This document shows, piece by piece, positions 25,881-51,937 of a stretch of DNA of 64,000 bases. The stretch is taken from IMG/VR virus record IMGVR_UViG_3300029305_002725, positions 36,815 to 100,814 of that record; one strand, 5' to 3'. The notes beneath the pieces were generated by a model, which worked only from the letters and a program-made list of their open reading frames with translations, was not told where the DNA came from and searched no databases. The translations under genes and the position numbers were made by a program. The DNA comes from a virus (lineage: Duplodnaviria > Caudoviricetes). Each line of letters starts with the position of its first letter. The first letter of the stretch is position 1.

Positions 25881-26378
25881 ATGGCACAGGATATGAATCT
25901 AAATGTCTCCCACGTTGTAGCTGAATCTACTATGCTAGGTGCTACTCAGTGGGCTGAACATATTTTTAGCGTAAAAATGAATGCCGACAGAGATAATGGC
26001 GGTATTATTGCTCGTGGTGATTATATTGATGACGAGTATTATGAGGAGGCAGCTTATGCTGCTGGCAAGGAGCCTATGCTAGTTCTAGCTCCCCCTATCA
26101 TGGCTTTTGATGGCCTAAAGGAATATACTTATGAAGAGCGTTTCTACAATGCCAAGGATGCAGTTGTTAGATGTTATGTTCTAAAGGTTGGCGACAGATA
26201 CTCTCTATCTGAGAACGCTTTTGATGTCGCTCCCAAGGAAGGTCAGTACGTAACTTATGATGGTTCCATTTATAATGTTGCTGATGCTGCTGATGACACT
26301 CAGTTCTGCGCAAAGGTTCTAAAGAAGATCGTGCGTAAGAACAGAATTATGTATAAGCTCGTTGTCGAGCATCTATAA
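25881..26378 (+). CDS. capsid decoration/auxiliary head protein
   Basis: Position before MCP; same extreme codon bias. Confidence 0.6.
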   Translation: MAQDMNLNVSHVVAESTMLGATQWAEHIFSVKMNADRDNGGIIARGDYIDDEYYEEAAYAAGKEPMLVLAPPIMAFDGLKEYTYEERFYNAKDAVVRCYVLKVGDRYSLSENAFDVAPKEGQYVTYDGSIYNVADAADDTQFCAKVLKKIVRKNRIMYKLVVEHL

Positions 26379-26400
26379 TTTGAAAGGATGGTGAAACTAT

Positions 26401-27507
26401 ATGAAGAATCTAATGAATTTTGATGCTACCGTTCGTGCAGCTTTTGAAAACGATGAAAGCAAGCTAATGGCTTTTAGCAAGCTAATGATTGACGCTAAGA
26501 ATGGTGTATTTGAGGCTGGTATCACTGCTAAGGATGCAAGCGATAAGATTGTCTCTATTTTCCGTAATGCTCTTGGTCTAAGCGAGAATGCTAATAAGGC
26601 AGAAGTCCGTAAGGCTATTCGTAGAAACCAGAATGTTCTATTTGCTCTATCTGAGGATCTAATTGAGGATATGCTAGTTACTGGTTGGCAGGAGAACCCC
26701 TTCTTCATGGAATATGTTGATGTTAGAAACCTAGCTCTAGGCGATGAGAACATCTTTACTATGGAAGACGATTCTCTACTAAGTGTTAGCCGCGTTGCAG
26801 ATGGTCATTGGAATATTGATCGTCAGAGACTAGGCAAGGGTCGTTCTTTCAGCGTGGAGACTGCTACTTATGGTATTGGTATCTACAGCGAGTATGAGAG
26901 ACTACTAACTAATGCTGAAGACTTTGCCACTTTCGTAACTAAGATTTATGAGGCTATTGACCGTTTTGTTAACGAGTCTATTTATCAGGCATTCAAGTCC
27001 GCTGCTGAGCAGCTACCTGGTGGTGCTTCTGGCGCAGGTCAGTGGGTTAAGACTTCCGACCTATCCGCTACTACTAAGGACGCTTTCATTCAGCTAATCG
27101 AAGATGTTCAGATGGCCACCGGTAAGGAAGTTGTCATCATGGGTACTAAGGTTGCTCTAAGCAAGCTAGAAAAGATTCAGGACATCAATTGGGTTTCTAA
27201 TGAAATGAAGCAGGAGCGTCATACCACTGGTCGTATTGGCCTATTTGATGGCATCAGACTAGTTGAGCTAAAGCAGGGCTTCGCTCTAAATGATACTTCT
27301 AATAGACTAATTGACGACAAGCAGCTATTTATTATGCCTGTTGGTGACAACAAGTTTGTTAAGGTTGTTAATGTTGGCGATCAGGAGATGCGTCAGACTG
27401 CCGATATGACCTCTAACCAGGACCAGACTTATGACTACCGTCTAGTCTTCCGTATGGGCGTTGCTGTTCAGATCGGTCTAATGTTCGGTGTTTGGAACCT
27501 AGCTTAA
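26401..27507 (+). CDS. major capsid protein
   Basis: 368 aa; synteny; strongest high-expression codon bias. Confidence 0.8.
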   Translation: MKNLMNFDATVRAAFENDESKLMAFSKLMIDAKNGVFEAGITAKDASDKIVSIFRNALGLSENANKAEVRKAIRRNQNVLFALSEDLIEDMLVTGWQENPFFMEYVDVRNLALGDENIFTMEDDSLLSVSRVADGHWNIDRQRLGKGRSFSVETATYGIGIYSEYERLLTNAEDFATFVTKIYEAIDRFVNESIYQAFKSAAEQLPGGASGAGQWVKTSDLSATTKDAFIQLIEDVQMATGKEVVIMGTKVALSKLEKIQDINWVSNEMKQERHTTGRIGLFDGIRLVELKQGFALNDTSNRLIDDKQLFIMPVGDNKFVKVVNVGDQEMRQTADMTSNQDQTYDYRLVFRMGVAVQIGLMFGVWNLA

Positions 27508-27542
27508 TATAAATACAAAAAGGAATAAAAGGAGAATTTAAT

Positions 27543-28082
27543 ATGGCAACTAAGAAATCTAATGAAACTGAAGTTGTTACTGAAGAAGTGACAACAAAGT
27601 CTGAACCTAAGCAGGTCACAAAAGCTCCCCGCAAGTTTGCACCTGATGACAGAATTGTTTGTCGTAGTGTAACTTTTGGAGAGCTTTTACTGACCGGTGT
27701 AAAATCTAAACTACTGTATACTTGGGCTAATTATGGTGATACCACTGAAGTTGAGTTCCAAGATCTACAAGCTATGAAGTCTATGAGATCTAGTTATTTA
27801 TATAGACCAAGATTTATCATTGAAGATGAAGAGCTTGTTGAACAGTGGGGCAAAGATTTTGGTGATATGTATAAAAATATCGAAGATACGGATGTGGAAA
27901 ATCTATTTAAACTTCCTATTGGTCAATTCAAAGCTAAGCTTAAGAAGGCACCTAAGGGTGTTCAGCAAGCAGTGAAGAATATTGCAGGAGAGAAGATTCT
28001 AAATGGTTCTCTAGATAGTATTGCTAAAATCAAAGCTATTGACGAGTGCTTAGGTACAGATTTAAAGGTTTATATTCAGTAA
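27543..28082 (+). CDS. conserved post-capsid protein
   Basis: Synteny; AAAGGAG SD. Confidence 0.65.
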   Translation: MATKKSNETEVVTEEVTTKSEPKQVTKAPRKFAPDDRIVCRSVTFGELLLTGVKSKLLYTWANYGDTTEVEFQDLQAMKSMRSSYLYRPRFIIEDEELVEQWGKDFGDMYKNIEDTDVENLFKLPIGQFKAKLKKAPKGVQQAVKNIAGEKILNGSLDSIAKIKAIDECLGTDLKVYIQ

Positions 28083-28099
28083 TTTGGAGGTGACCTTAT

Positions 28100-28519
28100 A
28101 TGGCGACTCCATATGAAAAAATTTATGAACGTTTTTTAAATAGTGTTACTGATTTTAATTTGGCTGAACTAGATGATTATACACTAGATAAAATGTTAAA
28201 AGATTGGTTACATAAGGCAGTTGTGAGAACACGCACTTCAAGTGATTTATCTCGTGGTAATGAAAATGAAGAGTTTAATGGTGATTTGTCTGATTTAGAT
28301 ATTGAACTATTAGCTTTAGGAATGAAACTTGCGTGGCTAGATCAAACTCTTGGTTCTACTGAATTAACTTTACAGTTTATCGGAGGAAAAGAAGAGAAGT
28401 ATTATAGCCAAGCAAATCATATTTCTGAACTTCGTGCACTGCGTGAAGATACAAAGCTTGAAATGCAAAAATTGCATTCTTATAACACCTATACCAACAG
28501 CTCATATTTTAATGACTAA
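28100..28519 (+). CDS. head-tail adaptor
   Basis: MATPYEKIYERFL...FNGDLSD-IELLA...YSQANH family pattern; synteny. Confidence 0.65.
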   Translation: MATPYEKIYERFLNSVTDFNLAELDDYTLDKMLKDWLHKAVVRTRTSSDLSRGNENEEFNGDLSDLDIELLALGMKLAWLDQTLGSTELTLQFIGGKEEKYYSQANHISELRALREDTKLEMQKLHSYNTYTNSSYFND

Positions 28520-28532
28520 GGGGGCGTTTCCA

Positions 28533-28838
28533 ATGAATATTTATGAAGAAATGCCACAAAGTCAAATTGCTGCAGAAAAGAAATATATCCGATCTGCAAT
28601 TTTTAAACTACTACCATACAAAGAAGAGTCTTACGAATATTTAAATGAATATTTCAACTCTGTGCTACAACTACTTAGAGGTTTCAATAAGGTTTCTGGC
28701 AATCAGCCGGAGATGGTCAGTATTATTAGTAAGATTGCATATGCGCAAGATGTTGAAGATTTTAGCGAATATCGTAAGGCTATTCTTGATTGTTGTAGTC
28801 TGGTAGATAGAATTAAGGAGAGTGATCCTAATGCTTGA
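28533..28838 (+). CDS. hypothetical virion-module protein
   Basis: Start moved to ATG 28533 behind AAGGGGG. Confidence 0.65.
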   Translation: MNIYEEMPQSQIAAEKKYIRSAIFKLLPYKEESYEYLNEYFNSVLQLLRGFNKVSGNQPEMVSIISKIAYAQDVEDFSEYRKAILDCCSLVDRIKESDPNA

Positions 28839-29913
28839 ATCTTATAGGCTTCGCATGGCTGCGCTTGGTGGCTATGAAGGCGAAGCTAAGCGTAGGAATG
28901 CTCAAAAAATTATGGATGCATCTTGGATGCGAGATCCAGCTACTAAACTCGTTTATGTTAAATGGGTTGATAGTGGTCTCCCGCTAATAGATGATGATGA
29001 TATTCCAATTTACGCTAAATATAACGTAAAGTCTTATCACAATATTACTGGAGATTCAATTGCGTATTTGTTGCAATTTAGATTAGAAGACATGAAAGCC
29101 AATCCTAATATTAGGGTTGGCGCTTATGTTCAAATTATGAATGAAATGGATGAGCCTGAATGGTGGTTAATCGTTCATTTTGACGACAGAACTCAATTTA
29201 GGCAGTTTTCAATTTTGAAATGTACGTGGACTTATAAATGGGTTTCTAGAGTTAGTGGTAAGCGTGTTGTGCATCAATGTCTTGGTGCACCTCGCAAACA
29301 GAACTCTTATAACAGCGGTGTTTGGTTAGATTACTACACACAAACTGTTGAAAATCAGGAAGTTTTTTGGGTACCTACAAATGATGATACTAGAACGATT
29401 GTTTACGACACTAAGTTTTTGAAATCTTCCGAGGGCAGATATCCTCCTTTGAGATGGACAATCACAAAGATTGAAGATACTGCGGTTGAAGGAATTTCAA
29501 TGTTTACTTTGGCACAAGATCAATTCGATCCTGCTAAAGATAATGCAGAACTTGGCATAGCCAGCTATTATGATTCTTATGTAGAGCCAGAGATTACCGA
29601 GATGGAAGAAATACCTACTATAAGCGATTTAGAAATTATCTATTCTGGTTCCCCTGCAGTTCGTGCTGGTGGTGGATATAAAAAATTCACACTTAAGGAA
29701 CGTATCGATGGAAAACTAGTTAATGGCACAGATGTTAAGTGGAGCATTGATTTTTCCGACGGTGACTTAGATAAACTTGAACAATCTGTGAAAGATAATG
29801 TTTTAAAGGTAAAGTGCTTGCCATATTATGATTTAGTTGGAAAAACATTCACTATTATCGCTGAAAGCAAATATAGTTCAAAATCTCTCATCGTGGAGGT
29901 GATTAGTCTATGA
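28831..29913 (+). CDS. putative head-closure/neck protein
   Basis: Synteny; beta-rich with Ig-like C-terminus. Confidence 0.55.
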   Translation: MLESYRLRMAALGGYEGEAKRRNAQKIMDASWMRDPATKLVYVKWVDSGLPLIDDDDIPIYAKYNVKSYHNITGDSIAYLLQFRLEDMKANPNIRVGAYVQIMNEMDEPEWWLIVHFDDRTQFRQFSILKCTWTYKWVSRVSGKRVVHQCLGAPRKQNSYNSGVWLDYYTQTVENQEVFWVPTNDDTRTIVYDTKFLKSSEGRYPPLRWTITKIEDTAVEGISMFTLAQDQFDPAKDNAELGIASYYDSYVEPEITEMEEIPTISDLEIIYSGSPAVRAGGGYKKFTLKERIDGKLVNGTDVKWSIDFSDGDLDKLEQSVKDNVLKVKCLPYYDLVGKTFTIIAESKYSSKSLIVEVISL

Positions 29914-30431: not shown

Positions 30432-31143
30432 TGACTTGAAACTTTATATTGGCGATGATTATGTCATCAATGATAATATTAAAGTATTACAGCCAACTAT
30501 AAGACAAATTGCAGAGTTTGGTGAACGTGATTTTTTCTCTGTAGTTCATACGGTATGTGCCATACCGAGCGATATGAAAAGTCAGCTTTGGGACATGGGT
30601 CTCGATTGGACAGAAGTTGATGATTTTGAACTATTTGTAATGCTTGTACAGACTTTAACTCCAGATAGAACTGGACTTTTATTTGGTGATATAGATCTTT
30701 CAAAATTAAGACCGTACAAACATCCACACATTGAAGATGAAATTATTTTAGTTGACAAACAAGCTGGAATTCTTGTTGACAAAATGATTTATCTTAGAAT
30801 TGTATCCTATCTTCGTAAAGCATTTAATATTACGCCGAAAGTTGAAAAAGCGGCTAATAAAATGACTAAGAAAATTTTAATTGAAGAAGATAGGGCAAAA
30901 TTAAAATTTAATAAAAATAAGCCTTTTAAGTCTTTTTTGTTGCCGCTGATATCATCTGTTAAAGTTAGGCAAGGTTATACTAAAGAATATGTACTAAATA
31001 TGGGGTATGTTGAATTTATGAATGACGTTGCAAGACTTCAAGTGATTCATAATGCAGACCACTTGTTAAGCGGTGTGTATGCTGGCACTATAGATATGAA
31101 GAAAATTGATAAAAAATCTCTTAACTGGATGTGCGAGTTATAA
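30361..31143 (+). CDS. conserved tail-module protein (start uncertain)
   Basis: ORF track; synteny. Confidence 0.6.
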   Translation: MKQLNQIHLITQGRLILVINLDVDDLKLYIGDDYVINDNIKVLQPTIRQIAEFGERDFFSVVHTVCAIPSDMKSQLWDMGLDWTEVDDFELFVMLVQTLTPDRTGLLFGDIDLSKLRPYKHPHIEDEIILVDKQAGILVDKMIYLRIVSYLRKAFNITPKVEKAANKMTKKILIEEDRAKLKFNKNKPFKSFLLPLISSVKVRQGYTKEYVLNMGYVEFMNDVARLQVIHNADHLLSGVYAGTIDMKKIDKKSLNWMCEL

Positions 31144-31178
31144 TTTCAGATAAGAGTATAAAAAATTATATGTATAAT

Positions 31179-31206
31179 AAAGAGCCAAAATCAATTGGCT
31201 CTTTTT
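31179..31206 (+). terminator. terminator-like hairpin
   Basis: AAAGAGCCAA...TTGGCTCTTTTT. Confidence 0.6.
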
Positions 31207-31245
31207 GTATTTAAAATTTAAATTATTTTATGGAGGTAAATTATC

Positions 31246-32061
31246 ATGGCTTTTGATATGAATAATTTTGTAATTGATAGAATTATCCGTGGTGTTGCAC
31301 TATCTCAGAAAGATGATAGTGTCTTATTCTCTATCAATCAGATCCAGAACGCTTCTCTAAACTGCGCTTCTGAGTCTACTGATGCTGTTGACGCAATGGG
31401 CACTCCTATTGCTACTTTCTACAGAGCTAAGTCTGCAGAATTTTCTGCTGAAAATGCTCTATTCGACATGAACCTAATGGCTACCCAGCTAGGTACTTCT
31501 AAGAAGGTTGCTTCTGCTTCTGCAAAGGTTGTTGCTCCTTCCATGGAAAGCTTTGTTATTGGCGAGGAAGCTTGGGACAAGAAGGTTGTTGCAGATAAAT
31601 ACACTCTAAAGCACAAGCCTCTAGCTATTCCTACTGAGATTTACGCTATCAATGGCGATAGCACTTTTGGCGTAAAGTTTGTTAAGGAAACTGATGCTTC
31701 TGCTACTGGTTTTGCTTACGCTGAGGATGACAATACCATTACTCTACCTACTGGTCTAGCCGATGGTACTGAGCTATTTGTTATGTATGAGTACGAGTCT
31801 GAGAATGCTGTTGAGGTTGTCAACTCTGCTAAGAACTTCCCTGTTGGTTGTAAGTTTGTTATGGAAGTCCTAGGTTGTGACGTTTGCGATCAGACCAACC
31901 TAGTTTATGCTTATGTTATCTTCAATAACGCTAAGCTAAGCCCTGACTTCGACTGGTCCATCGCTACTGATGGAACCCACCCCTTCTCTATGAAGGCTCA
32001 GCAAGATTATTGCGACAGAGAAAAGAGACTATTCTCCATCGTCATCCCTGGCGACGAATAA
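31246..32061 (+). CDS. major tail (tube) protein
   Basis: Synteny, beta-rich, high-expression codon bias, followed by terminator. Confidence 0.7.
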   Translation: MAFDMNNFVIDRIIRGVALSQKDDSVLFSINQIQNASLNCASESTDAVDAMGTPIATFYRAKSAEFSAENALFDMNLMATQLGTSKKVASASAKVVAPSMESFVIGEEAWDKKVVADKYTLKHKPLAIPTEIYAINGDSTFGVKFVKETDASATGFAYAEDDNTITLPTGLADGTELFVMYEYESENAVEVVNSAKNFPVGCKFVMEVLGCDVCDQTNLVYAYVIFNNAKLSPDFDWSIATDGTHPFSMKAQQDYCDREKRLFSIVIPGDE

Positions 32062-32094
32062 TAGTTTATAATTTGAAATTAATGTGTTAAATAC

Positions 32095-32120
32095 GGGCTA
32101 GTGATATTTGTCACTAGCCC
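32095..32120 (+). terminator. terminator hairpin
   Basis: GGGCTAGTGA-tatttg-TCACTAGCCC. Confidence 0.7.
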
Positions 32121-32152
32121 ATTATTAATATCTCGAAAGGAGCATGAACCAT

Positions 32153-32545
32153 ATGGGAAGACGTACTCGCGAATGCTATCTCTGTGGTCAAGACTACCAA
32201 TACTGCCCCACTTGTTCTCAAGACAAAATGAAACCAGCATGGATGTCTGACTTTCACAGCGAAAATTGCAAAAACATTTTTGATATTTGCACTCGTTTTA
32301 ATATGAGTCTAATGTCCAAAGATGAGGCTCAGGACGCCCTAAATGCCTGCGACTTATCCAATAAAGCAAACTTTAAATCCTATGTTCAACGTGACCTAGA
32401 AAATATTTTTAAAGTTGACGAAGTTCCTGTACCGGTTGCAGAACCAAAATTTAAGCGCGGAAAGCGCATTGAAATAAAACCTGTCGATGATGCAATGATC
32501 ATCGAAGAATCACATGAAGTAGTTGTTAAAAAAGAAAATGAATAA
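32153..32545 (+). CDS. Cys-rich hypothetical protein
   Basis: CYLCG..Y.YCPTC...HSENC. Confidence 0.7.
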   Translation: MGRRTRECYLCGQDYQYCPTCSQDKMKPAWMSDFHSENCKNIFDICTRFNMSLMSKDEAQDALNACDLSNKANFKSYVQRDLENIFKVDEVPVPVAEPKFKRGKRIEIKPVDDAMIIEESHEVVVKKENE

Positions 32546-32597
32546 GGCACTATAAACTTCATGTTCAACGAAGCTTACGGTGCCTTATTTTTTTTTA
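32541..32597 (+). terminator. long hairpin with T tract
   Basis: AATAAGGCAC...GTGCCTTATT-TTTTTTT. Confidence 0.6.
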
Positions 32598-32620
32598 TGC
32601 AAAAAAAGGAGGAAAAGGAA

Positions 32621-32845
32621 TTGATCAAGTCCCTGATCACAGGCCGAGAATATGCCGAAAATAACTGTGTCTATGTAACCAATATGCTACAGGCACAAAA
32701 ATATCTGGCGCACATTGGACCACAGTACCTTTTAGATATCCTATACACAGGTACATATAGAAAAGATTCCTTAGTTTTTGTTTTTGAGCGTTGTCCAGAG
32801 ACACGCAAGGCAAAAGAACTGTGGGATAAACATGAATTAAATTAA
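32621..32845 (+). CDS. small conserved phage protein (DUF5659-like)
   Basis: TTG start behind GGAGG; LVFVFE motif. Confidence 0.6.
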   Translation: MIKSLITGREYAENNCVYVTNMLQAQKYLAHIGPQYLLDILYTGTYRKDSLVFVFERCPETRKAKELWDKHELN

Positions 32846-32963
32846 AACGAAAAATAAATTTGCTATTATAACTAGTTGGTGTCACATTTATCTCCGACTG
32901 AATTACAATAGCTATTGATAATATTAAATAAAACATTACATTTTTAAAAAGGATGTGATTTAA

Positions 32964-33209
32964 TTGAGTACAAAAAAACTACAACTTCTAGGACAACTAG
33001 GAGAAAAAATTTATAAACAGAATGAGGAACCAACTAACCCAGTTGAGGGATCTTTATGGATTGATATGGACGAAGAAGGTGGCGGTGGTTCTGGCGGAAA
33101 GTGCTCTATGCCAGAAATTACTGCAGAAACTGAAGGTGCATTTTTATGTGTAGTTAATGGAGAAGCTACCTGGCAAGTTATTCCAGATGCTGAGGGGGTT
33201 GGATTTTAA
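32964..33209 (+). CDS. fibre adaptor, cassette 1
   Basis: Shares QNEEP..GSLWIDMDEEGGGGSG with 34604 and C-terminal FL.VVNG..W with 36013. Confidence 0.6.
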   Translation: MSTKKLQLLGQLGEKIYKQNEEPTNPVEGSLWIDMDEEGGGGSGGKCSMPEITAETEGAFLCVVNGEATWQVIPDAEGVGF

Positions 33210-34288
33210 TGTCTAAATACTTAGTTAGAGGAGAGACCTTGACGGCAGTTGCTAATGCTATTAGAAATAAAACTGGTAAGACTGGTGCTATAACTTTAAA
33301 TGACTTTGTTACTGAAATTGAGCAGGTGGACTATCGAGAAGTTATAGATACTGTACCTTCTATTACTGGATCCCTAACATACAATGGTTCGGAACAGTCT
33401 CCAACAATACTTGCTTATAATCCAGATCAGCTTATGATGACTGGCATTTCTTCTGCTACAAATGCAGGAACTTATGAGATTGCTTTTAGTCCAAAAGATG
33501 GTTATAAATGGGCTGATGACACTACAACAGCAAAAGTTGTTGAGTGGAGCATTGCGAAAGCTTTCGGCAGTCTGTCTTTGAGTGCAACATCTGGAAAAAT
33601 AATTGGCAAGAGTAATAATACGGCAACATTTACAGTTACAAGAACTGGTGACGGTGCAATATCTGTACAGTCCAGCAACACTTCGATTGCTACTGCTACG
33701 GTATCTGGAACAACTGTTACTGTTACATCTAAAGCATATGGATCGGCAACAATCACCGTGTCTGTTGCCGAAGATGCTAATTATACTGCACCAAGTAGCA
33801 AAACATACTCCGTTACAGTCGATTATTTATATCTATTCAATGCTGGTGACGAAAATACTTCTGTTACTGGTGGCTGGCAAGCTAGAGGATGGAGAGGAAG
33901 CAGTGCTGTTTCAACTGGTACAGCACCTACAATTACAAAAAGTAATGGAACAATGGCGATCGCATTTGCCGCTGGTGCGGCTGGTGTAGCAGAACCTAAA
34001 AAAGATATCAATTTCAAGGGATTTGAAACAATATATTGTAGAATTACAAAAATAGCAAACGGAAGTGATCCATTTTCCAAAGCAAGACTTTCGATTGTTA
34101 GTAGAAGTGCTACTTATTATATCACCAACTCTGTTACGAATGTGACTATTGGTTCAACTGGCACTGTATCCATCAATATTTCGGGACTTAGTTCCACCAC
34201 AAGCTATGATGTTGTTATTGGTGGTGCAGGTAGAGGTACTGGTTCTTCTGCATATACAGTTACAGTTGATAAAATCTGGTGTGAATAA
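33209..34288 (+). CDS. putative receptor-binding fibre with Ig-like domains, cassette 1
   Basis: LTAVANAIRNKTG N-motif; Thr/Ser-rich Ig-like repeats; variable beta-sandwich C-terminus. Confidence 0.65.
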   Translation: MSKYLVRGETLTAVANAIRNKTGKTGAITLNDFVTEIEQVDYREVIDTVPSITGSLTYNGSEQSPTILAYNPDQLMMTGISSATNAGTYEIAFSPKDGYKWADDTTTAKVVEWSIAKAFGSLSLSATSGKIIGKSNNTATFTVTRTGDGAISVQSSNTSIATATVSGTTVTVTSKAYGSATITVSVAEDANYTAPSSKTYSVTVDYLYLFNAGDENTSVTGGWQARGWRGSSAVSTGTAPTITKSNGTMAIAFAAGAAGVAEPKKDINFKGFETIYCRITKIANGSDPFSKARLSIVSRSATYYITNSVTNVTIGSTGTVSINISGLSSTTSYDVVIGGAGRGTGSSAYTVTVDKIWCE

Positions 34289-34300
34289 GGAGGTTGCGAT

Positions 34301-42321: not shown

Positions 42322-42322
42322 A

Positions 42323-43196: not shown

Positions 43197-43245
43197 TTGT
43201 ATTGGCAGTTTTTTCATATAAAAAATTATGAAAGGATGATATTGA

Positions 43246-44124
43246 ATGGCAGTTCAAAAAATCAAAACTGTGTTCCAATTCCGTAGAGCGACTGCGGAAG
43301 AGTGGCTGTTAAATAAAGACGTTAAACCTGCCGCTGGTGAACCTTGTTTTGTTATTGATGAGAACATTCTAAAAATTGGTGATGGTATTCATACCTTTGA
43401 GCAGCTAGAGCCAATTAATGGTGTCAAACTAGAAATTGCCGCTGATGAAAAGTCTATTATTTTAGATGATAATATTCTAAAACTAATGGGCTTTGATGAT
43501 GCACCAGAAGGTGCTCAGCCGCAAAAGGATAAAGACGGAAAACTTAAGTGGGCTGTTCCATCTACTGAAGTTATTGACACTCTAAAATCTGATGTTGCGG
43601 GTTTAAAAACTAGTGTTGATAGCATTGCAACTGATGTTGGTGGACTACAGACCGAAGTTTCTGACCTAAAGGTTATCATTGGTTCTGACGATAGTGGTTC
43701 TGAAACACTATTGTCTAGAATTGAAGGTCTAGAGAAAGAAGTTGACACCATTATTAATGGTTTAACACCTGATGATGGCACAATTGATAGTTTAGTTGAA
43801 CTTATTAATTATGTTGAAACTCATGGTAAAAAGACTGCAAAAATCGTATCTGATATCACTACGCTCCAAGATTTGGTTGGTACAGATCCTGTTGCTGATC
43901 AAATCGCTACAGCCACTGCCAATTGTGTCAAGAAAATTGCTGTTAATGGTATTCTACTAGATATGATTGATGGCAGGATTGATATTACTATTCCTGAAAT
44001 TAAGGAATCTGATGAGATCGCTGTCAATGAAGATGGTTCTTTAAGCATTAAGACTATTAGCTTTGACAAGATTGCACAGAGTCCCGACGTTACCATTATT
44101 ATGGATGGTGGAAGTGCTGTCTAA
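43246..44124 (+). CDS. fibre protein with Mtd_N-like N-terminal domain and coiled coil
   Basis: QFRRATAEEW...GEPCF...LKIGDG..TF.QL. Confidence 0.7.
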   Translation: MAVQKIKTVFQFRRATAEEWLLNKDVKPAAGEPCFVIDENILKIGDGIHTFEQLEPINGVKLEIAADEKSIILDDNILKLMGFDDAPEGAQPQKDKDGKLKWAVPSTEVIDTLKSDVAGLKTSVDSIATDVGGLQTEVSDLKVIIGSDDSGSETLLSRIEGLEKEVDTIINGLTPDDGTIDSLVELINYVETHGKKTAKIVSDITTLQDLVGTDPVADQIATATANCVKKIAVNGILLDMIDGRIDITIPEIKESDEIAVNEDGSLSIKTISFDKIAQSPDVTIIMDGGSAV

Positions 44125-44167
44125 CAGTACAAAATTAATGTAAGTTTACGAATGAGGAGGTGATATT

Positions 44168-45148: not shown

Positions 45149-45163
45149 AGGAGAAATGTAATT

Positions 45164-47275
45164 ATGGCTATTGAAAATGCAAAGACTCTAAATGTAAGAA
45201 TTCGTAATAAGTATGACTCTTATGAGAATTGGATTTCATCTGGTCTAACTTTAGAGGCTGGAGAAATTGCAATCGCATATACCACAGTTGATGTTAAGGT
45301 TGATAATGGTGTAGCAAAACATCCAGCATTGCTTGCAAAAGTCGGCAATGGATCCGACTCCTTTAAGGATTTACCTTGGCTAAGTGCTCGTGCAGCTGAT
45401 GTTCTAGCTGTTTGTAAGAATGAAGCCGAACTAAAAACCTTCATCAATGGTGTTATTGCTGATGCTGGCATTGCTTCTAGCGATGCTATGGAAGCTCTAG
45501 CTGGCAGAGTTACCACTGCTGAGGGCAAGGTTACTACCCTAGAGGGCAAGATGACAACTGCAGAGGGTAAGATTACTGCTAATGAAGGTGCTATTGCTAC
45601 TCTAAACGAGCTAGTTGGTAACACTTCTGTTAACGCTCAGATTAAGGCTTATGTTGACGCTCTAAATCTAGCTGACACTTATGCTGCAAAGACTCACGGC
45701 CATGCTATTGCTGATGTTGAAGGTCTATCTGACAGTATTGCCGCTGCCAAGAAGGCTGGTACTGATGCCAATGCTGCGCTAGAGGCTTACAAGACCACTA
45801 ATGACGCTGCCGTTAAGGTTAACTCCGATGCTATTACTGCTATTAAGAATGGTACTTCCATTGACAACTTCAAGGAAGTCGAAGAGGCTCTAGCTGGCAA
45901 GCAGGCTGCTGGTGACTACTCTGTTGTTGGTCACAAGCATGAAATTGCTGATGTGAACGGCTTATCTGATGCTATCGCTGATGCTAAGAAGGCTGGCACT
46001 GATGCTGCTACTGCTGCTGGTCAGGCTCTAACTGACGCTAAGGCATACACCGACAGCGAGATGACCAGACTAGTTGGTGCAACTCCTGTTGCTGATCAGA
46101 TTTCTGGTGCTATTACCGAGCTAGACCTAGCCAACACTTACGACGCTAAGGGTGCAGCTGCTGCCGCTGAGACTGCTGCTAAGTCCCACGCTACCGAGCT
46201 AAATACTGCTATGGATGGCAGAATGCAGGCTGTTGAGGCTAAGAAGCACGAGCATGAGAATAAGACTGTTCTAGATGGCATTACTGCTGAGAAGGTTGCT
46301 GCTTGGGATGCTGCTGAGCAGAACGCTAAGGATTATGCTGATGATCTAGACGAGGCTATGGATGCTAGAGTTCTAGCTCTAGAGGCTAAGTTCGGTGATG
46401 GCGAAGGCAACGTTGAAGCTCAGATTGCTGCCGCTGTTGCTGCTGAAGCTAAGCTACGTGACGATGCTGACAAGGCTCTACAGGCTCTAATTGAGTCCAA
46501 CGATGCTGATATCCTAGCTCTACAGGGTCTAGTTGGTGAAACCAAGGTTTCTACTGCTATTGAGACTGCTGTTAATGCTGAAAAAGAAAGAGCAATGGGC
46601 GTTGAGGGTGGTCTAGAGACCAGACTAAAGGCTGTTGAGGACGATCATCTAGTTGCTGCCGACAAGACCGAGCTAGAGGGTAAGATTAAGTCCAACACCG
46701 ACGCTATTGCTCTACTAACTAATGGTGCTGATCCTGATGTTGTTGACGGTGTTACCGACCTAATTGCTTATGTTGCAGAGCATGGTACTGAGGTCACTGG
46801 TATTAAGGCCGACATCAAGACCAATGCTGATGACATTGATGCTCTAGAAGGCAGAATGACTACTGCCGAAGGTGCTATTGCTACCAAGGCTGCTCAGGCT
46901 GACCTAGAGGCTCTAGCTGGTCGTGTTACTACTGTTGAGGGCGACCTAAACACTGAGACCACTGGTCTAAAGGCTAGAATGACTGCTGCTGAGGCTGATA
47001 TCGATGCTCTAGAGGCAAAGGTTGACACTGGTGATAAGAAGGTTTCTGAGTATGTTGCTGCTGCTATCAATGCACTAAGCATTGGTGATTATGCTAAGGC
47101 TGCAGACCTAACCGCTGCTATTAATCAGCATAACACTGACAAGGCTGCTCTAGAGGCTGAAATTGCTAAGAAGGCTAACGATGCTGATCTAGCTGCTATT
47201 GCTAAGACTGGTTCTACCGACGATCTAGTTCAGGGTGAACTTGTTCTAGTATTTAACTGCGGTGGCGCTAACTAA
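45164..47275 (+). CDS. long coiled-coil fibre protein with Mtd_N-like N-terminal domain
   Basis: RIRNKYD..ENW...GEIAI...KVGNG...F.DLPW; Ala-rich heptads; H.H.IADV.GL repeats. Confidence 0.75.
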   Translation: MAIENAKTLNVRIRNKYDSYENWISSGLTLEAGEIAIAYTTVDVKVDNGVAKHPALLAKVGNGSDSFKDLPWLSARAADVLAVCKNEAELKTFINGVIADAGIASSDAMEALAGRVTTAEGKVTTLEGKMTTAEGKITANEGAIATLNELVGNTSVNAQIKAYVDALNLADTYAAKTHGHAIADVEGLSDSIAAAKKAGTDANAALEAYKTTNDAAVKVNSDAITAIKNGTSIDNFKEVEEALAGKQAAGDYSVVGHKHEIADVNGLSDAIADAKKAGTDAATAAGQALTDAKAYTDSEMTRLVGATPVADQISGAITELDLANTYDAKGAAAAAETAAKSHATELNTAMDGRMQAVEAKKHEHENKTVLDGITAEKVAAWDAAEQNAKDYADDLDEAMDARVLALEAKFGDGEGNVEAQIAAAVAAEAKLRDDADKALQALIESNDADILALQGLVGETKVSTAIETAVNAEKERAMGVEGGLETRLKAVEDDHLVAADKTELEGKIKSNTDAIALLTNGADPDVVDGVTDLIAYVAEHGTEVTGIKADIKTNADDIDALEGRMTTAEGAIATKAAQADLEALAGRVTTVEGDLNTETTGLKARMTAAEADIDALEAKVDTGDKKVSEYVAAAINALSIGDYAKAADLTAAINQHNTDKAALEAEIAKKANDADLAAIAKTGSTDDLVQGELVLVFNCGGAN

Positions 47276-47301
47276 TATTAGTTAATTTGAATAAGAATGA
47301 T

Positions 47302-47330
47302 GGGGAGCCTGAAACGATGGCTCCCCTCTT
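47302..47330 (+). terminator. terminator-like hairpin
   Basis: GGGGAGCC...GGCTCCCC. Confidence 0.6.
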
Positions 47331-47370
47331 CTCTAAAATCTGAAATGATGATTTGAAGGAGAAATTAATA

Positions 47371-48792
47371 ATGGCTGAAAAAAATTTAAATAATATTCGT
47401 ATCATTAATAAACATGATACAGAAGAGAACTGGCTAAAAGCCACGGGATTTTCACCATTACAGGGTGAACTTATTGTTTATGACGTAGATGCTAATTATT
47501 CATATGAGCGCTTAAAAATCGGTGACGGCACAACAAATGTGAACGACCTACCGTTTATTGATGATTCTTTATATGAGCAAATTAAAACAGAAATTGACGC
47601 AATTCCAGTTCCAGTACAAGCTGATTGGAATGAAAATGATAGCACAAGTATATCTTATATTAAAAATAAGACGCACGGTGTTGAAAAAGTTGACGTTGTT
47701 GTCATAGAGGAACAAGAGGTCACTTTTGTTTTAAGTGAGTCGCTTTATATGGCAGAGGTTTCAGGCACTTTCTTGCATGAACCAAACATGGTTGATGAAA
47801 ATGGATTTACTATCATATGGGATGGTGAAACATATCAAAGATCTATCGTTATTTTTTATGGAGATTATTTTATAGGTAATTTATCTATATTGACTGGTGA
47901 TGAAACACATAATACGGGAGAACCTTTCGTGTTTATGTGTTACCCTGATGGATGCCTTGTTGGATGTCCGCAGTCTGAAGGAATGGTACATACCATTAGT
48001 TTGTCATATAATGCAGAAGACGTACAAAAGCTAGATATGAAATATTTGCCAAGTGATTTGGCATTGAAGTCTGAAATACCAACTATTCCTACAAACGTTT
48101 CAGCATTTGTTAATGATGCAGAATATGTTGCTTTAATCAAAGGTAATGAACAAACTTTTGAATTTACAAGAGACGAAACTTATTCTGGAGACCATTTTAA
48201 ATGGAATGGTTTTGATTATTATAAAGTTTCCGATATGACACCGTTATATGATGATATTACCGCTGTAAGTGGTACGTGGTTTGCTAATGGTAATATATCT
48301 ACTCAAGAAACTCTGATGACCGGCACTTCTTGTTATTATGCTGGACATGCTATAGTTATTATTGAGCCAGGTTCTTGCACACTTTCAAATATGACTTTTA
48401 ATGCACCATCTGCCGGTATTTATTTTAAGAAGTCTAGCGATACATATTATCAGACCGCATTGTCTATGACATTTGCACGTAAATGCATCAGCGACAATAT
48501 TATTCCAGATAATATTGCAAGAACACCAAAAATGACAGGCGTAACATTATCTGCTACAAGTTGGACTGGTGATACTAATCCATATTCTCAAGTTGTAACC
48601 ATTAATGGAGTCACTACTAATAGCAAGGTTGATTTGCAGCCTACTGCGTATCAAATTGTTGAAATGCAGAACAATGATATTGCATTTATTGCAGAGAATA
48701 ATGATGGTGTAGTTACTGTTTATGCTATTGGTGGTAAGCCTGCTGTGGATTATACTATGCAAGCATTAATTACGGAGGTGGTTGTAGTATGA
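47371..48792 (+). CDS. fibre protein with Mtd_N-like N-terminal domain
   Basis: KHDTEENW...GELIVYD...LKIGDG.T.V.DLPF; QADWNEND...YIKNK motif. Confidence 0.7.
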   Translation: MAEKNLNNIRIINKHDTEENWLKATGFSPLQGELIVYDVDANYSYERLKIGDGTTNVNDLPFIDDSLYEQIKTEIDAIPVPVQADWNENDSTSISYIKNKTHGVEKVDVVVIEEQEVTFVLSESLYMAEVSGTFLHEPNMVDENGFTIIWDGETYQRSIVIFYGDYFIGNLSILTGDETHNTGEPFVFMCYPDGCLVGCPQSEGMVHTISLSYNAEDVQKLDMKYLPSDLALKSEIPTIPTNVSAFVNDAEYVALIKGNEQTFEFTRDETYSGDHFKWNGFDYYKVSDMTPLYDDITAVSGTWFANGNISTQETLMTGTSCYYAGHAIVIIEPGSCTLSNMTFNAPSAGIYFKKSSDTYYQTALSMTFARKCISDNIIPDNIARTPKMTGVTLSATSWTGDTNPYSQVVTINGVTTNSKVDLQPTAYQIVEMQNNDIAFIAENNDGVVTVYAIGGKPAVDYTMQALITEVVVV

Positions 48793-48986
48793 AGATAGTC
48801 GGTAATATGGTCGGATGCTACAGCCCGATTGGTAAAACCTTTATTCTCGAAGATGAAAATGGAAATGAACTTACTGGTATTGTTGTAGATCAAGAAGTAG
48901 TATTTACAGCAACTGCAGCGGATATTGTGAAAGGTAAAGTTGCTGGAACTGAAGATGGCGTTGTTGTTGGAACACATGAATGTTAA
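48789..48986 (+). CDS. small fibre-associated protein
   Basis: TATAADIVKGK.A...G.V.GT motif; ATGA overlap. Confidence 0.6.
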   Translation: MKIVGNMVGCYSPIGKTFILEDENGNELTGIVVDQEVVFTATAADIVKGKVAGTEDGVVVGTHEC

Positions 48987-49042
48987 TATATGGTACTAGT
49001 AAATTAAATATAAATATTGCACAATTTTGAAAAGGAGGTGCA

Positions 49043-49777
49043 TTGATGCCTGATAAGATATTTAAAATTCATGATGGAAGAACAAATTTCTGGCAATGGG
49101 ATACACAACAAAAATTAATCGTCTTAGATGAAAATATTACAGAAGTTCGTTTTTCCAACAGAAATATGGATCATTCAAAACGTAGAATTGTTTATACTGA
49201 CAATGATAATAATAGGGTTTGCAATGTACCAGACATACTATTACAACTACCAAAGGATTTAATGGTATACGCCTGTATAAAACAAGATAATAAGTCTTTT
49301 CGTACTGTTAAGGCAGAGAAATTTGAGGTGTATAGACAGCCAATTCCATCTGATTATATTTGTGAGCAAGATGCGGCAGTTGATGCGATTCTTGGTAGAT
49401 TAGAAATGTTAGAAAATCTTATTGAAGATATTAAAAATGGAAGCCAAGAACTTAAGAGGTTTGACAATATAGTTGATGCAGCAAAATGGGCGGTGACTAA
49501 CGGCACTGCTGGTAATATTGTTGTTGTTTATATAGAAGATAAGTGGGTTCCCCATGTTATTGAGGGAGATTTTACTTTATCTGCTATTTGTGATTGTAGT
49601 GGCGAAATGATGAATATAGGTACTTATGTACCTAGACTTGAACATGATAAATTAATTTTTGAACTAAAAGACACTCCTGATGAAGAAAAGATTGTTATTG
49701 ATATTGACAGAACTAATGAGTGGGGTACTATTGAAACCGCCAATGATACTAATTATATTTGGGAGTATTTGGAATAA
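49043..49777 (+). CDS. putative fibre anchor B
   Basis: Paralog of 42498 with a different C-terminus. Confidence 0.6.
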   Translation: MMPDKIFKIHDGRTNFWQWDTQQKLIVLDENITEVRFSNRNMDHSKRRIVYTDNDNNRVCNVPDILLQLPKDLMVYACIKQDNKSFRTVKAEKFEVYRQPIPSDYICEQDAAVDAILGRLEMLENLIEDIKNGSQELKRFDNIVDAAKWAVTNGTAGNIVVVYIEDKWVPHVIEGDFTLSAICDCSGEMMNIGTYVPRLEHDKLIFELKDTPDEEKIVIDIDRTNEWGTIETANDTNYIWEYLE

Positions 49778-49840
49778 TATTATGAGTAGAAATGATAAAA
49801 TCGTATTTCTATAAATTGATTTTATGAAAGGAGAAAACAA

Positions 49841-50344
49841 ATGGCAAATAATAATGTGCGTTTTATCAATGTTAAATTACAAGAGACTTATGATTCTTTA
49901 CTTCAAAAGGATGCTAGTACACTTTATTTTGTTCAAGAAACAAATAGATTTTACCACGCTGACCGCCTAATGGGTACTGGTGCATTGGTTGGAGAGATTG
50001 CCGGTTTAATGTCTCCAGAAGACAAGAAAAAACTTGATGAATTAGTATCTAGCTCCACTTCTGGTTTGTCGCCGGTGGCGGGTGATGGTATTGTTATTAG
50101 CAATAATGTTATTGAAGTTAATATTTCTGATAATGCACATGGTCTAACTGCTGTCGATGGTGCTCTGACCATTAAACTCGCAACAGCAGAAAGAGACGGT
50201 GCTATGTCTGCCGCAGATAAGGCAGCTCTAGACTCTTTGGTCGCACTTGGTATTGTTGATAATTACGCCACTAGAACAGAAGTACAAGCTATTTTTGATA
50301 AAATTACATCTGTTGAAGAATCTTACACTTGGGGTGAGATATAG
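49841..50344 (+). CDS. fibre segment protein
   Basis: TLYF..ET, GLMS.EDK.KLD and GAMSA.DK fibre repeats. Confidence 0.6.
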   Translation: MANNNVRFINVKLQETYDSLLQKDASTLYFVQETNRFYHADRLMGTGALVGEIAGLMSPEDKKKLDELVSSSTSGLSPVAGDGIVISNNVIEVNISDNAHGLTAVDGALTIKLATAERDGAMSAADKAALDSLVALGIVDNYATRTEVQAIFDKITSVEESYTWGEI

Positions 50345-50377
50345 TTTATAATACAATTTTATAGGAGGAAAATAAAC

Positions 50378-51937
50378 ATGGCATTACTGAGATTTTTGAA
50401 GGGTAATTATAACTCCCTAAGCTCTGCCACTATTACAGAGGGTCAGGTGCTAATTTGTGGTGACACTGGTGAGATGTTTGTTGACGTTGCTGCCGACAAG
50501 CGTGTAAAAATCGGTGATTTCGTTGTTGTGTCTAATCTAGCGGCACTAGAGATGTTGGATGCGTCTGCTGTTCCTACTTCTAGACTTTATTATGTTGAAG
50601 ATGGCAATATTTTAGCACGCAGCAATGGAACCACCTGGATCCAAATAAACAAGCAGCAAACCCTTTCTGAACTAGGCGGTGTTGCTAAGTCCGTTTATGA
50701 GGAAAAAGTTGTATCTCTAGAGAAAGCAGACACTGACAATGCTAATGCAATTGCTGACGTTGACACTAGACTTAAGACTGCTGAAGATAAGCTAAAGTCC
50801 GTTGCAACCACTGAGGGTCTAGGCGATTTGGCAGACACTGTTGCTGAACATGCAACCGCTATTGATATTATTAATGGCACTGTTGAAACTGAAGGCTCTA
50901 TGCTAAAGATTGCTAAGGATACTGCAGACTTAGCTATCAGCAACAAGATTGGCGACGTTGAAGATGGCAAGACTATTGTTGATATGATTGCCGAGGTGCA
51001 GTCTTCATCTGGTTATGACGACGAAGAAATTCGTGGTTTAATTAATGATAATGCCGAAGCTATTGATCAAGAAATTTCTGATCGTGAAGGTGCAATTTCT
51101 GACTTGCAAAGCGAGTTGGAGGATCAGATTAGCAGTAAGGTTGCACAGTCTGATTATGATGATAAGGTTGCTGAATTAGTTGCCGAGGATGAAAGACTAT
51201 CTGGTCTAGTCAATGGTAATGCTGCTGCTATTGAAGAGCTAGGCGGTGAGATTGACACTCTAGTTGGTGACGATGCTGGCAAGTCTATTCGTACTATTGC
51301 TAATCAGGAACTAGCTGCTCAACTAATTCCTGAAAGTGCAGCTGAAGCCCTAGATACTTTACATGAGATTGCAGCTTGGATTCAGGAGCATCCCGATAGT
51401 GCTTCTGCTATGAACGCTGCTATTGGGACTCTACAGGATAAGGTAGATACTGGTGATCAGACCGTGTCTGCATATGTTACTGCTGTTATCGAGGCTTTAA
51501 ATATTGGTGACTATGCTAAAGCTACAGAACTAGCCGCTGCCATTGAGCGCATTACTGCTCTAGAATCCTCTTCTGCTACTCATGCAACTAAGACTGAGAT
51601 GCAGAGCGTTGCTGATGATCTAGATGCTTATAAGCAGAATCATAATACCGATTATGACAATGACACTATTGACGCTAAGGTTAAGGGTGTTCAGGATCAG
51701 ATTGATGCTCTTGATAATACCTATGCTACTGATGCAGAGCTAACATCTGCTATTAATGCAGAGGTTGAGCGTGCTAATGGTGTTTATGCTGACAAGACTA
51801 TTGTTGATAGTCATACAAGTAACACAGATATTCATGTTACTACTGCTGACAAAGAAAAGTGGAATTCTGCACAAGAAAACGCAGAAAAAACTGCAAATGA
51901 TGCTCTAATAGCAGCATTGTCCTGGAGTGAGTTTTGA
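50378..51937 (+). CDS. coiled-coil fibre protein
   Basis: LDTL.EIAAWI.EH motif; heptads; shares KVDTGD..VS.YV...I.AL.IGDYAKA with 45164. Confidence 0.7.
   Translation: MALLRFLKGNYNSLSSATITEGQVLICGDTGEMFVDVAADKRVKIGDFVVVSNLAALEMLDASAVPTSRLYYVEDGNILARSNGTTWIQINKQQTLSELGGVAKSVYEEKVVSLEKADTDNANAIADVDTRLKTAEDKLKSVATTEGLGDLADTVAEHATAIDIINGTVETEGSMLKIAKDTADLAISNKIGDVEDGKTIVDMIAEVQSSSGYDDEEIRGLINDNAEAIDQEISDREGAISDLQSELEDQISSKVAQSDYDDKVAELVAEDERLSGLVNGNAAAIEELGGEIDTLVGDDAGKSIRTIANQELAAQLIPESAAEALDTLHEIAAWIQEHPDSASAMNAAIGTLQDKVDTGDQTVSAYVTAVIEALNIGDYAKATELAAAIERITALESSSATHATKTEMQSVADDLDAYKQNHNTDYDNDTIDAKVKGVQDQIDALDNTYATDAELTSAINAEVERANGVYADKTIVDSHTSNTDIHVTTADKEKWNSAQENAEKTANDALIAALSWSEF

What the first reader, a model, noticed from the sequence alone, without database searches (positions are those of the whole stretch)
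25881..51937. Extreme CTA-Leu preference restricted to abundant late genes
Seen: by hand count 29 of 30 Leu codons in the major capsid gene are CTA. The decoration gene, tail tube and fibre 45164 show the same bias by eye, and fibre 50378 more weakly. The codon-biased left-arm gene 3474-4142 uses CTT/TTA/CTC with no CTA, and accessory genes are mixed. Known: CTA is usually a minor Leu codon in Bacillota. Inference: late translation is tuned to tRNA-Leu(UAG), perhaps phage-encoded outside this window, or avoids host Leu tRNAs destroyed during infection.
Basis: partly seen in the sequence, partly recalled or inferred. Interest (0 to 1): 0.7.

Follow-up and report, generated by a model that had tools for sequence, protein, structure and literature searches.

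The report
CTA-only leucine in abundant phage proteins
In this uncultured gut phage the most abundant proteins spell leucine almost only as CTA, while another group of equally codon-biased genes, probably early ones, uses CTT/CTC/CTG; the pattern is real and kept by selection, no phage tRNA explains it, and it is a sharp case of a known phage habit whose cause is still open.

Summary
The capsid gene has 29 CTA among 30 Leu codons. Eight genes together have 164/220, against 167/1457 in the other genes (P 5e-84).

- The bias is not limited to late genes. A Sak4-like ATPase and its SSB-like neighbour, both upstream of the window, share it.
- It sits inside a general optimised dialect: NNT in family boxes, AAG and CAG, with other A-ending codons avoided.
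- Other genes with that same dialect use CTT/CTC/CTG instead. So there is a leucine-specific split, and a complete relative keeps it.

The contig is about 63% complete and carries seven tRNA genes, none for leucine. Two relatives, one of them complete, carry Leu-UAA/CAA tRNAs but no Leu-UAG. The phage tRNAs read the very codons that the abundant genes avoid.

CTT is avoided only in frame, and CTA sites align with Leu in distant homologues. The effect is therefore at decoding, not a sequence motif or a recoding.

The host is unknown. CTA is enriched in highly expressed genes of all four candidate gut taxa tested, but never as strongly as in the phage.

Best reading: selection for decoding by a host tRNA-Leu(UAG). 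This may be specific to a stage of infection.

This scan has noted similar CTA biases in other phages before.

The parts
25881..26378 (+). Decoration-like head gene, CTA class (9/10 Leu = CTA)
   Evidence: phrog_4147; orthologues in relatives have 13/14, 10/14 and 13/16 CTA
26401..27507 (+). Major capsid gene, CTA class (29/30)
   Evidence: relatives have 30/32 and 28/28, and more weakly 18/27, 18/28 and 17/30; lineage-specific Leu sites are also CTA; CTA sites align with Leu or hydrophobic residues in distant capsids
31246..32061 (+). Virion structural gene (tube-like), CTA class (14/15); highest general bias
   Evidence: (phrog_2729)
43246..44124 (+). Minor tail / whisker-like gene, intermediate (12/24 CTA)
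45164..47275 (+). Ala-rich fibre gene, CTA class (48/54). The first ~100 codons are ordinary (CTA 5/9); the rest has 43/45
50378..51937 (+). Fibre gene, weaker CTA class (22/40)
3474..4142 (-). First gene of the leftward operon: an Ala/Lys-rich protein with a basic tail. General bias as strong as the CTA class, but Leu = CTT 7, TTA 2, CTC 1, CTA 0
   Evidence: orthologue in the complete relative G002 has CTT 12, CTG 7, CTC 3, CTA 1
31..4142 (-). Leftward operon of small genes (it continues upstream of the window): third Leu dialect, CTT .31, CTC .21, CTG .17, CTA .04
   Evidence: chi-square against bulk genes P 7e-12; against the late class P 6e-29

Best explanation
The CTA bias is translational selection on the phage's most abundantly made proteins: capsid, decoration, tube, two fibres, and a Sak4-like / SSB-like pair.

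These genes are written in a strongly optimised dialect:
- GCT, GGT/GGC, ACT/ACC, CCT, TCT and GTT in the family boxes;
- AAG and CAG;
- almost no ACA, CCA, TCA, GGA, AAA, CAA or ATA;
- CTA for leucine.

CTA as the leucine word points to decoding by a tRNA-Leu with anticodon UAG that the host supplies, not the phage. The phage's own tRNAs read A-ending codons (AAA, GAA, AGA, ATA; in relatives also CAA, GGA, ACA, CCA, TTA). They therefore serve the A/T-rich bulk genes, not the abundant ones.

Shown here: the bias, its gene set, its general character, its in-frame nature, its conservation, and the lack of a phage Leu-UAG tRNA in the available sequence.

Inferred: that a host tRNA-Leu(UAG) is the selective agent. 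It is open whether CTA is best at all times or only at the stage when these proteins are made.
For: - Per-gene counts and pooled test.
- The same genes shift nearly all amino acids: GCT .64 v .29, GGA .07 v .34, AAG .85 v .43, CAG .87 v .43, ATA .02 v .19.
- A PCA built without any Leu codon picks the same genes. Seven of its top eight are CTA-rich (Spearman rho 0.39, P 2e-4).
- Out-of-frame CTT is not depleted in these genes (.0217 and .0091, against .0155 and .0108 elsewhere), and CTAG is not avoided. The choice is therefore made at the codon.
- CTA sites align with Leu (39% v 8% background) or with L/I/V/M/F (80% v 30%) in three distant capsids.
- Relatives keep the bias, and Leu sites unique to one lineage are CTA in 6/7, 9/9, 7/7 and 8/9 cases.
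- Phage and relative tRNA sets lack Leu-UAG.
- CTA is enriched in the ribosomal-protein/EF set over background in all four candidate gut genomes tested: G004 .53 v .19, G046 .28 v .08, G047 .24 v .08, G045 .23 v .14. CTA is the main Leu codon of tuf in G045, G046 and G047 and in many Clostridia.
Against: - The host is unknown. There are no CRISPR spacer matches, no prophage relatives and no close cultured phage.
- No candidate reaches the phage's 77-97% CTA. All candidates keep ACA, CCA and TCA, which the phage avoids.
- The tuf genes that best match the phage's non-Leu dialect are split between CTT users (L188, L351) and a CTA user (L189).
- A second set of equally biased phage genes uses CTT/CTC/CTG. 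These are gene 3474-4142(-), the leftward operon, and genome 20763-21716(-) with CTT 17/21. The split is conserved in G002. A single host optimum that never changes does not explain this.
- The MAG that holds a related phage contig (G004) never uses CTG in its highly expressed genes, yet that contig's capsid gene has 6 CTG. This makes G004 doubtful as its host.
Confidence: 0.55

Rival explanations
1. Stage-specific leucine-tRNA pool. Early genes are tuned to the uninfected cell's pool, in which tRNA-Leu GAG and CAG read CTT/CTC/CTG. Later in infection that pool changes: either the phage or a host defence cuts or inactivates those tRNAs, or tRNA-Leu(UAG) rises. The abundant middle and late proteins are therefore written in CTA. 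This refines the best explanation rather than excluding it.
For: - The leucine-specific split sits on an otherwise shared dialect. ACA, CCA and TCA are near zero and AAG is favoured in both classes; CAG too, except in genome 20763-21716 (CAG 1, CAA 3).
- The CTT/CTC/CTG class includes the first gene and the small genes of the leftward operon next to the divergent control region.
- The Sak4-like / SSB-like pair is intermediate (CTA .64) and the virion genes are extreme (.77-.97).
- The split is conserved in a relative whose early protein is only 29% identical.
- The phage carries RNA-end-repair-type genes next to its tRNA array: a Tpt1/KptA RNA 2'-phosphotransferase (E 3e-47) and a metallophosphoesterase.
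- From my own knowledge, not checked here: T4 infection cleaves a host leucine tRNA (Kano-Sueoka and Sueoka 1968; Yudelevich 1971).
Against: - Timing is inferred from gene position only; there is no transcript data.
- No nuclease was identified.
- Some CTT-class genes (next to the reverse-transcriptase module, and a peptidase-like gene) could be imported modules.
- tRNA levels cannot be tested with sequence alone.
Confidence: 0.3
2. A phage-encoded tRNA-Leu(UAG) lies in the unsequenced part of the genome and drives late translation.
For: The contig is about 63% complete, and its tRNA array sits at the contig start. By synteny with G001 it probably continues beyond the end.
Against: - None of the seven tRNAs here is a Leu tRNA.
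- G001 (87% complete) and G002 (complete, terminal repeats) have Leu-UAA/CAA only, also when introns are allowed. Yet their capsid genes are CTA-rich.
- The phage tRNAs match codons that the CTA-class genes avoid.
Confidence: 0.07
3. The cause is not translational. It is mutation bias, recent horizontal origin of the late genes, avoidance of a nuclease or restriction motif containing CTT, or a changed meaning of CTA.
For: The CTA-class genes are somewhat richer in G+C (0.42-0.47) than the bulk genes.
Against: - CTT is avoided in frame only.
- The bias is kept across relatives and at newly arisen Leu sites.
- CTA sites align with Leu.
- The bias runs along most of each gene and follows a Leu-independent bias axis.
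Confidence: 0.03

Closest known systems
Host-preferred codon usage concentrated in phage structural genes (Lucks et al. 2008, PMC2266997)
   Same: The strongest bias is in capsid and tail genes. It spans many amino acids and is kept by selection.
   Different: The host is unknown, so the match to host-preferred codons is unproven. The bias also covers two replication/recombination genes. A second optimised gene class uses a different leucine codon.
Early-versus-late codon-usage classes in phages (Mioduser et al. 2017, PMC5683454; T4 classes of Cowe and Sharp 1991, cited from my own knowledge)
   Same: There are discrete codon dialects by gene class: leftward operon, bulk genes and abundant proteins.
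   Different: Between the two optimised classes the difference is almost purely in leucine (CTT/CTC/CTG against CTA). The phage tRNAs serve neither optimised class.
Phage tRNAs as codon compensation or as replacements for tRNAs hit by host nucleases (van den Berg et al. 2023, PMC10264068)
   Same: The phage and its relatives carry 7-15 tRNA genes for A-ending codons, which are common in the bulk genes.
   Different: There is no tRNA for the codon in question. The abundant genes avoid the codons that the phage tRNAs read.
Rare-leucine-codon control as with bldA/TTA in Streptomyces, and the phiC31-like phage with its own CUA tRNA noted earlier in this scan (e1-3298698)
   Same: One leucine codon marks one gene class.
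   Different: Here the codon marks the most abundant proteins and no dedicated tRNA gene was found. No regulatory role is shown.

Membership tests
Translational selection for host-preferred codons in highly expressed phage genes | Bias concentrated in genes expected to be highly expressed | tested here: met
   Capsid, decoration, tube, fibres, and the Sak4-like / SSB-like pair top a Leu-independent bias axis
Translational selection for host-preferred codons in highly expressed phage genes | Bias affects many amino acids, not one | tested here: met
Translational selection for host-preferred codons in highly expressed phage genes | Preferred codons equal those of the host's highly expressed genes | tested here: inconclusive
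   The host is unknown. Four candidate genomes enrich CTA, AAG, CAG and GGT in ribosomal/EF genes but keep ACA, CCA and TCA, and they reach at most .53 CTA in that gene set (.68 in tuf)
Translational selection for host-preferred codons in highly expressed phage genes | Maintained by selection rather than ancestry | tested here: met
   Relatives keep it; lineage-specific Leu sites are CTA
Phage-tRNA codon compensation for late genes (T4 type) | The phage carries a tRNA that reads the over-used codon (anticodon UAG) | tested here: not met
   None in the contig or in G001/G002. Caveat: the contig is 63% complete
Phage-tRNA codon compensation for late genes (T4 type) | Codons read by phage tRNAs are enriched in the late or abundant genes | tested here: not met
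   AAA, GAA and ATA (and CAA, GGA, ACA, TTA for the relatives' tRNAs) are depleted in the CTA class; only AGA is kept
Temporal codon-usage classes (early v late) | Discrete codon dialects between gene classes | tested here: met
   Three Leu dialects; conserved in G002
Temporal codon-usage classes (early v late) | The classes correspond to time of expression | not testable with these tools
   Only gene position and operon layout are available; there is no transcript data
Infection-induced loss of a host leucine tRNA (T4 precedent) | A specific tRNA-Leu is cleaved or depleted after infection | not testable with these tools
   Only circumstantial: Tpt1 and phosphoesterase genes beside the tRNA array
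Codon reassignment | The codon's positions align with another residue in homologues | tested here: not met
   CTA sites align with Leu or hydrophobic residues

The most novel reading that the evidence does not exclude
During infection the usable leucine-tRNA pool is remodelled: tRNA-Leu GAG/CAG function is lost and only tRNA-Leu(UAG) remains reliable. The phage lineage has accordingly written its genes in two leucine dialects, CTT/CTC/CTG for the first genes and CTA for everything that must be made in bulk afterwards. Earlier notes of this scan report the same CTA habit in unrelated phages, including E. coli phages where CTA is the host's rarest Leu codon. If that holds, this could be a widespread and undescribed phage strategy (or counter-defence) centred on one isoacceptor.
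Probability: 0.25. Interest if true: 0.8.

Novelty: new variant of a known kind. Interest (0 to 1): 0.5.

Why it matters
Codon dialects by gene class are known in phages, and on that level this is a very clean example.

What goes beyond the textbook is the split itself. Two equally optimised gene classes differ essentially only in the leucine codon. The split is conserved in relatives and no phage tRNA accounts for it.

If the cause is a change of the leucine-tRNA pool during infection, the two dialects would be a sequence-only readout of tRNA-level conflict between phage and host. That could be read in thousands of uncultured phages.

If the cause is simply the host's optimum, the full dialect (CTA with NNT, AAG and CAG) is a useful fingerprint for finding the host.

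Tried and rejected
- Host search by capsid relatives in species genomes. One protein found nothing. The alignment found only two MAG contigs that look like binned phage. Of 401 genomes of the order of G045, 2 had distant capsid matches at about 1e-31.
- CRISPR arrays of G003, G045, G048 and G014: 126 spacers or repeat-spacer units, with no match above 16 bases to the phage or its relatives.
- Nearest cultured phages: none by DNA. Capsid about 30% identical (Bacillus, Lactococcus and SPbeta-like phages), terminase about 25%, lysin about 35%. These only suggest a Gram-positive host.
- Three EF-Tu codon-fingerprint scans of all species genomes and one of 401 genomes of the order of G045. They gave candidates but no genome with the phage's full dialect.
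- G004 (MAG labelled Kiritimatiellae) as host. CTA is its preferred Leu codon in ribosomal proteins. But it uses a Shine-Dalgarno motif less often than the phage (42% v 69%), uses no CTG where the binned phage contig does, and prefers ACA and CGT.
- Search for orthologues of the Sak4-like gene in relatives: not found with this query.
- Shared late-promoter motif by eye: nothing convincing.
The longer contigs of the closest relatives (96% capsid identity) therefore could not be fetched to look for a Leu-UAG tRNA.
Full report
**What the window is.** The window is bases 36815-100814 of a 100,814-base viral contig with 36.7% G+C. CheckV rates the contig about 63% complete. It belongs to a large family of uncultured phages. 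A capsid search found 938 homologues (E <= 1e-20); many of the best 120 lie on contigs of about 160-170 kb. The nearest cultured relatives are only about 30% identical in the capsid: Bacillus, Lactococcus and SPbeta-like phages. Two related contigs sit in ruminant or animal gut MAGs. The window holds the packaging, head, tail, fibre and lysis genes on the plus strand, and a leftward operon of small genes at its left end.

**Checking the observation.** I called genes as the longest non-overlapping ORFs and counted the six Leu codons per gene.

| Gene | CTA / Leu |
|---|---|
| Capsid 26401-27507 | 29/30 |
| Decoration 25881-26378 | 9/10 |
| Tube-like 31246-32061 | 14/15 |
| Fibre 45164-47275 | 48/54 |
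| Fibre 50378-51937 | 22/40 |
| 43246-44124 | 12/24 |

- The contrast gene 3474-4142(-) has CTT 7, TTA 2, CTC 1 and no CTA.
- Outside the window two more genes belong to the set. Genome 9283-10428(-) is an AAA_24 / Sak4-like annealing ATPase with 23/37. Its neighbour 10462-11529(-) has an acidic C-terminal tail; I call it SSB-like by inference only. It has 7/10.
- Pooled, the eight genes have 164/220 CTA against 167/1457 in the other genes (odds ratio 22.6, P 4.6e-84).
- So the bias follows expected abundance rather than lateness as such.

**It is part of a general dialect.** The same eight genes differ from the rest at nearly every amino acid:

| Codon | CTA class | Other genes |
|---|---|---|
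| GCT | .64 | .29 |
| GGA | .07 | .34 |
| ACT | .69 | .41 |
| ACA | .07 | .39 |
| CCT | .72 | .43 |
| TCA | .02 | .16 |
| GTT | .71 | .48 |
| AAG | .85 | .43 |
| CAG | .87 | .43 |
| ATA | .02 | .19 |

A principal-component analysis of codon use that leaves out all Leu codons puts the tube, fibre, capsid, decoration, Sak4-like, SSB-like and second fibre genes among its top eight. The bias is thus a general optimisation. Its odd feature is that every A-ending codon is shunned except CTA, and AGA is kept.

**There is also a leucine-specific split.**
- The remaining gene in that top eight is 3474-4142(-). It shares the dialect (no ACA, CCA or TCA; AAG 12/17; CAG 4/4) but writes Leu as CTT.
- Genome 20763-21716(-) has CTT 17/21. 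Genome 30886-33356(-) has CTT 20, CTG 13, CTC 8, CTA 3.
- The ten small genes of the leftward operon together use CTT .31, CTC .21, CTG .17 and CTA .04. That differs from the bulk genes (TTA .32, CTT .26, TTG .19, CTA .12; P 7e-12) and from the late class (CTA .77; P 6e-29).
- The phage therefore has three leucine dialects. The two optimised ones differ mainly in leucine.
- The split is old. The complete relative G002 has an orthologue of 3474-4142 that is only 29% identical but has the same basic tail. It uses CTT 12, CTG 7, CTC 3, CTA 1, while the capsid gene of the same genome has CTA 18/27.

**Selection and level of action.**
- Relatives with 65-68% identical capsids keep CTA in the decoration, capsid and tube genes. 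Examples are 13/14, 30/32 and 13/15 in L002, with weaker values in L128.
- Leu sites present in this phage but not in a given relative are CTA in 6/7, 9/9, 7/7 and 8/9 cases. So new leucines are also written as CTA.
- In the CTA-class genes, CTT in the two other reading frames is as common as elsewhere, and CTA is followed by G as often as expected. This argues against avoidance of a motif by a nuclease or restriction enzyme.
- The 29 CTA sites of the capsid align with Leu in 39% (background 8%) and with L/I/V/M/F in 80% (background 30%) of residues in three distant capsids. CTA therefore means leucine.

**Phage tRNAs.**
- The contig has seven tRNA genes at its very start: Asp-GUC, Glu-UUC, Arg-UCU, Asn-GUU, Lys-UUU, Ile-GAU and Ile-UAU. 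None is in the window.
- G001 (87% complete) has 14. G002 (complete) has 10, or 15 if intron-bearing predictions are allowed. They include Leu-UAA and Leu-CAA but no Leu-UAG.
- Most of these tRNAs read A-ending codons (AAA, GAA, CAA, GGA, ACA, CCA, TTA, ATA, AGA). Apart from AGA, these are the codons that the abundant genes avoid and the bulk genes use. Only AGA stays common in the abundant genes.
Because the array lies at the contig end, it cannot be fully excluded.

**The host question.** I could not identify the host. The attempts are listed under Tried and rejected.
- To learn whether CTA can be a preferred codon at all, I scanned one genome per species for EF-Tu genes with CTA at three conserved Leu sites. 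They include many Clostridium, Peptoniphilus, Anaerococcus, Tissierellia and Peptostreptococcus, and also Moraxella and Campylobacter. Most of the Clostridia among them prefer A-ending codons throughout, unlike the phage.
- A narrower fingerprint (GGT, GCT, CTA, CCT, CAG) gave 24 hits. Among them were Ruminococcaceae UBA3903 (G045), an Oscillospiraceae isolate (G046), Clostridium sp. CAG:964 (G047) and low-G+C Kiritimatiellia MAGs.
- In all four genomes studied, CTA is enriched in ribosomal-protein and elongation-factor genes over background.23 v .14.28 v .08.24 v .08, and .53 v .19 in G004. GGT, GCT, GTT, AAG and CAG rise with it. The direction of bias correlates with the phage's at r 0.42-0.58.
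- None of them avoids ACA, CCA or TCA, and none approaches 77-97% CTA.
- G004 is the MAG that holds a related phage contig. It is doubtful as a host, for the reasons given under Tried and rejected.
- Among 247 tuf genes in hand, the best matches to the phage's non-Leu dialect include both CTT users (L188; L351 with CTT 15, CTC 7, CTA 3) and a CTA user (L189 with CTA 14, CTT 9).
Host-type genomes that favour CTA exist in the right habitats, but so do ones that favour CTT.

**How it most likely works.** The facts fit selection for decoding of the bulk-produced proteins by a host tRNA-Leu(UAG). Two versions remain.
- In the plain version, CTA is simply the host's best Leu codon. The CTT/CTC/CTG class then needs a separate explanation.
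- In the stage-specific version, the first genes are tuned to the uninfected pool (tRNA-Leu GAG and CAG) and the later, abundant ones to a pool in which only tRNA-Leu(UAG) is dependable.
- The stage-specific version explains the conserved split and the gradient: operon .04, Sak4-like / SSB-like pair .64, virion genes .77-.97. It also fits the presence of a Tpt1/KptA RNA 2'-phosphotransferase and a metallophosphoesterase beside the tRNA array. It has a precedent in the cleavage of a host leucine tRNA after T4 infection (my own knowledge, not checked here).
- It rests on gene position as a proxy for timing, and no nuclease was found.
- I give the general statement 0.55 and the stage-specific refinement 0.3.

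**Relation to earlier notes of this scan.**
- Similar CTA biases in abundant phage proteins were noted before on other DNA. One case is a 181-kb rumen phage with three dialects (e1-5747714). Others are a gut phage with a leucine-specific rewrite (e1-5885715), a jumbo phage with early CTG and late CTA (e1-5726290), and two E. coli jumbo phages where CTA is the host's rarest Leu codon (e1-314817, e1-258430).
- I did not check those genomes. The notes led me to test for the three dialects and the leucine-specific split here, and both hold.
- The recurrence is a reason to keep the stage-specific reading alive. It is not evidence for it.

**Verdict.** The pattern is real, strong and selected. It is a sharp variant of known phage codon-usage classes (Lucks 2008, PMC2266997; Mioduser 2017, PMC5683454). 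The phage-tRNA idea is not supported. The destroyed-tRNA idea is untested but predicts what is seen. The host-optimum idea cannot be judged without the host.

Noticed in passing
L349:5169-5717 (-) and L349:2910-3674 (-) (same contig, upstream of the window): A Tpt1/KptA RNA 2'-phosphotransferase (Pfam E 3e-47, phrog_5470) and a calcineurin-like metallophosphoesterase lie close to the tRNA array and the GOLLD RNA. The phosphoesterase also matches the phosphoesterase part of a phage 'RNA ligase' family. This looks like an RNA end-healing or repair module. No ligase or kinase was found in the contig.
   Followed up: partly
L007:2590-2733, 4967-5326, 7888-7997 (relative G002): Several tRNA-like genes of the complete relative are predicted only when introns are allowed (His-GUG with a 71-base insert, and others of 106-128 bases). 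Rfam's tRNA model also hits long copies of 143 and 114 bases.
   Followed up: no
window 45164-45463: The first ~100 codons of the fibre gene have ordinary codon use (17 A-ending family-box, Lys, Gln and Ile codons; CTA 5/9). The remaining 600 codons are extremely biased (1-4 such codons per 100; CTA 43/45). The N-terminal module may be exchanged among paralogues or be of different age.
   Followed up: partly
L349:12654-14630 (-): A tyrosine recombinase (Phage_integrase, E 5e-32) sits next to a protein with an MrpR-like core-binding domain. The phage may be temperate, or it may resolve multimers.
   Followed up: no
window 55870-56829 and 56885-57823: Two adjacent LysM-bearing lysins with different catalytic domains (ELLD, E 6e-62; Phage_lysozyme2, E 1e-25).
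   Followed up: no
L212, L151 (G004) and L158 (G014): Two low-G+C genomes in the same order as G004 (MAGs labelled Kiritimatiellae/Kiritimatiellia) use CTA as the main Leu codon of ribosomal-protein and EF genes (e.g. rplB 13/18). The 28 other genomes of that order whose tuf was read use CTC, CTG or CTT in tuf, with CTA at most 1.
   Followed up: partly
L350:14083-15323 (+) (genome 34083-35323): Two long plus-strand ORFs rich in Cys and Leu look like chance reading frames, probably not genes. I left them out of the counts.
   Followed up: no
window 4143-5600: A long stretch with few ORFs and higher G+C lies upstream of the first leftward gene. It is the divergent control region between the leftward and rightward gene sets.
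   Followed up: no
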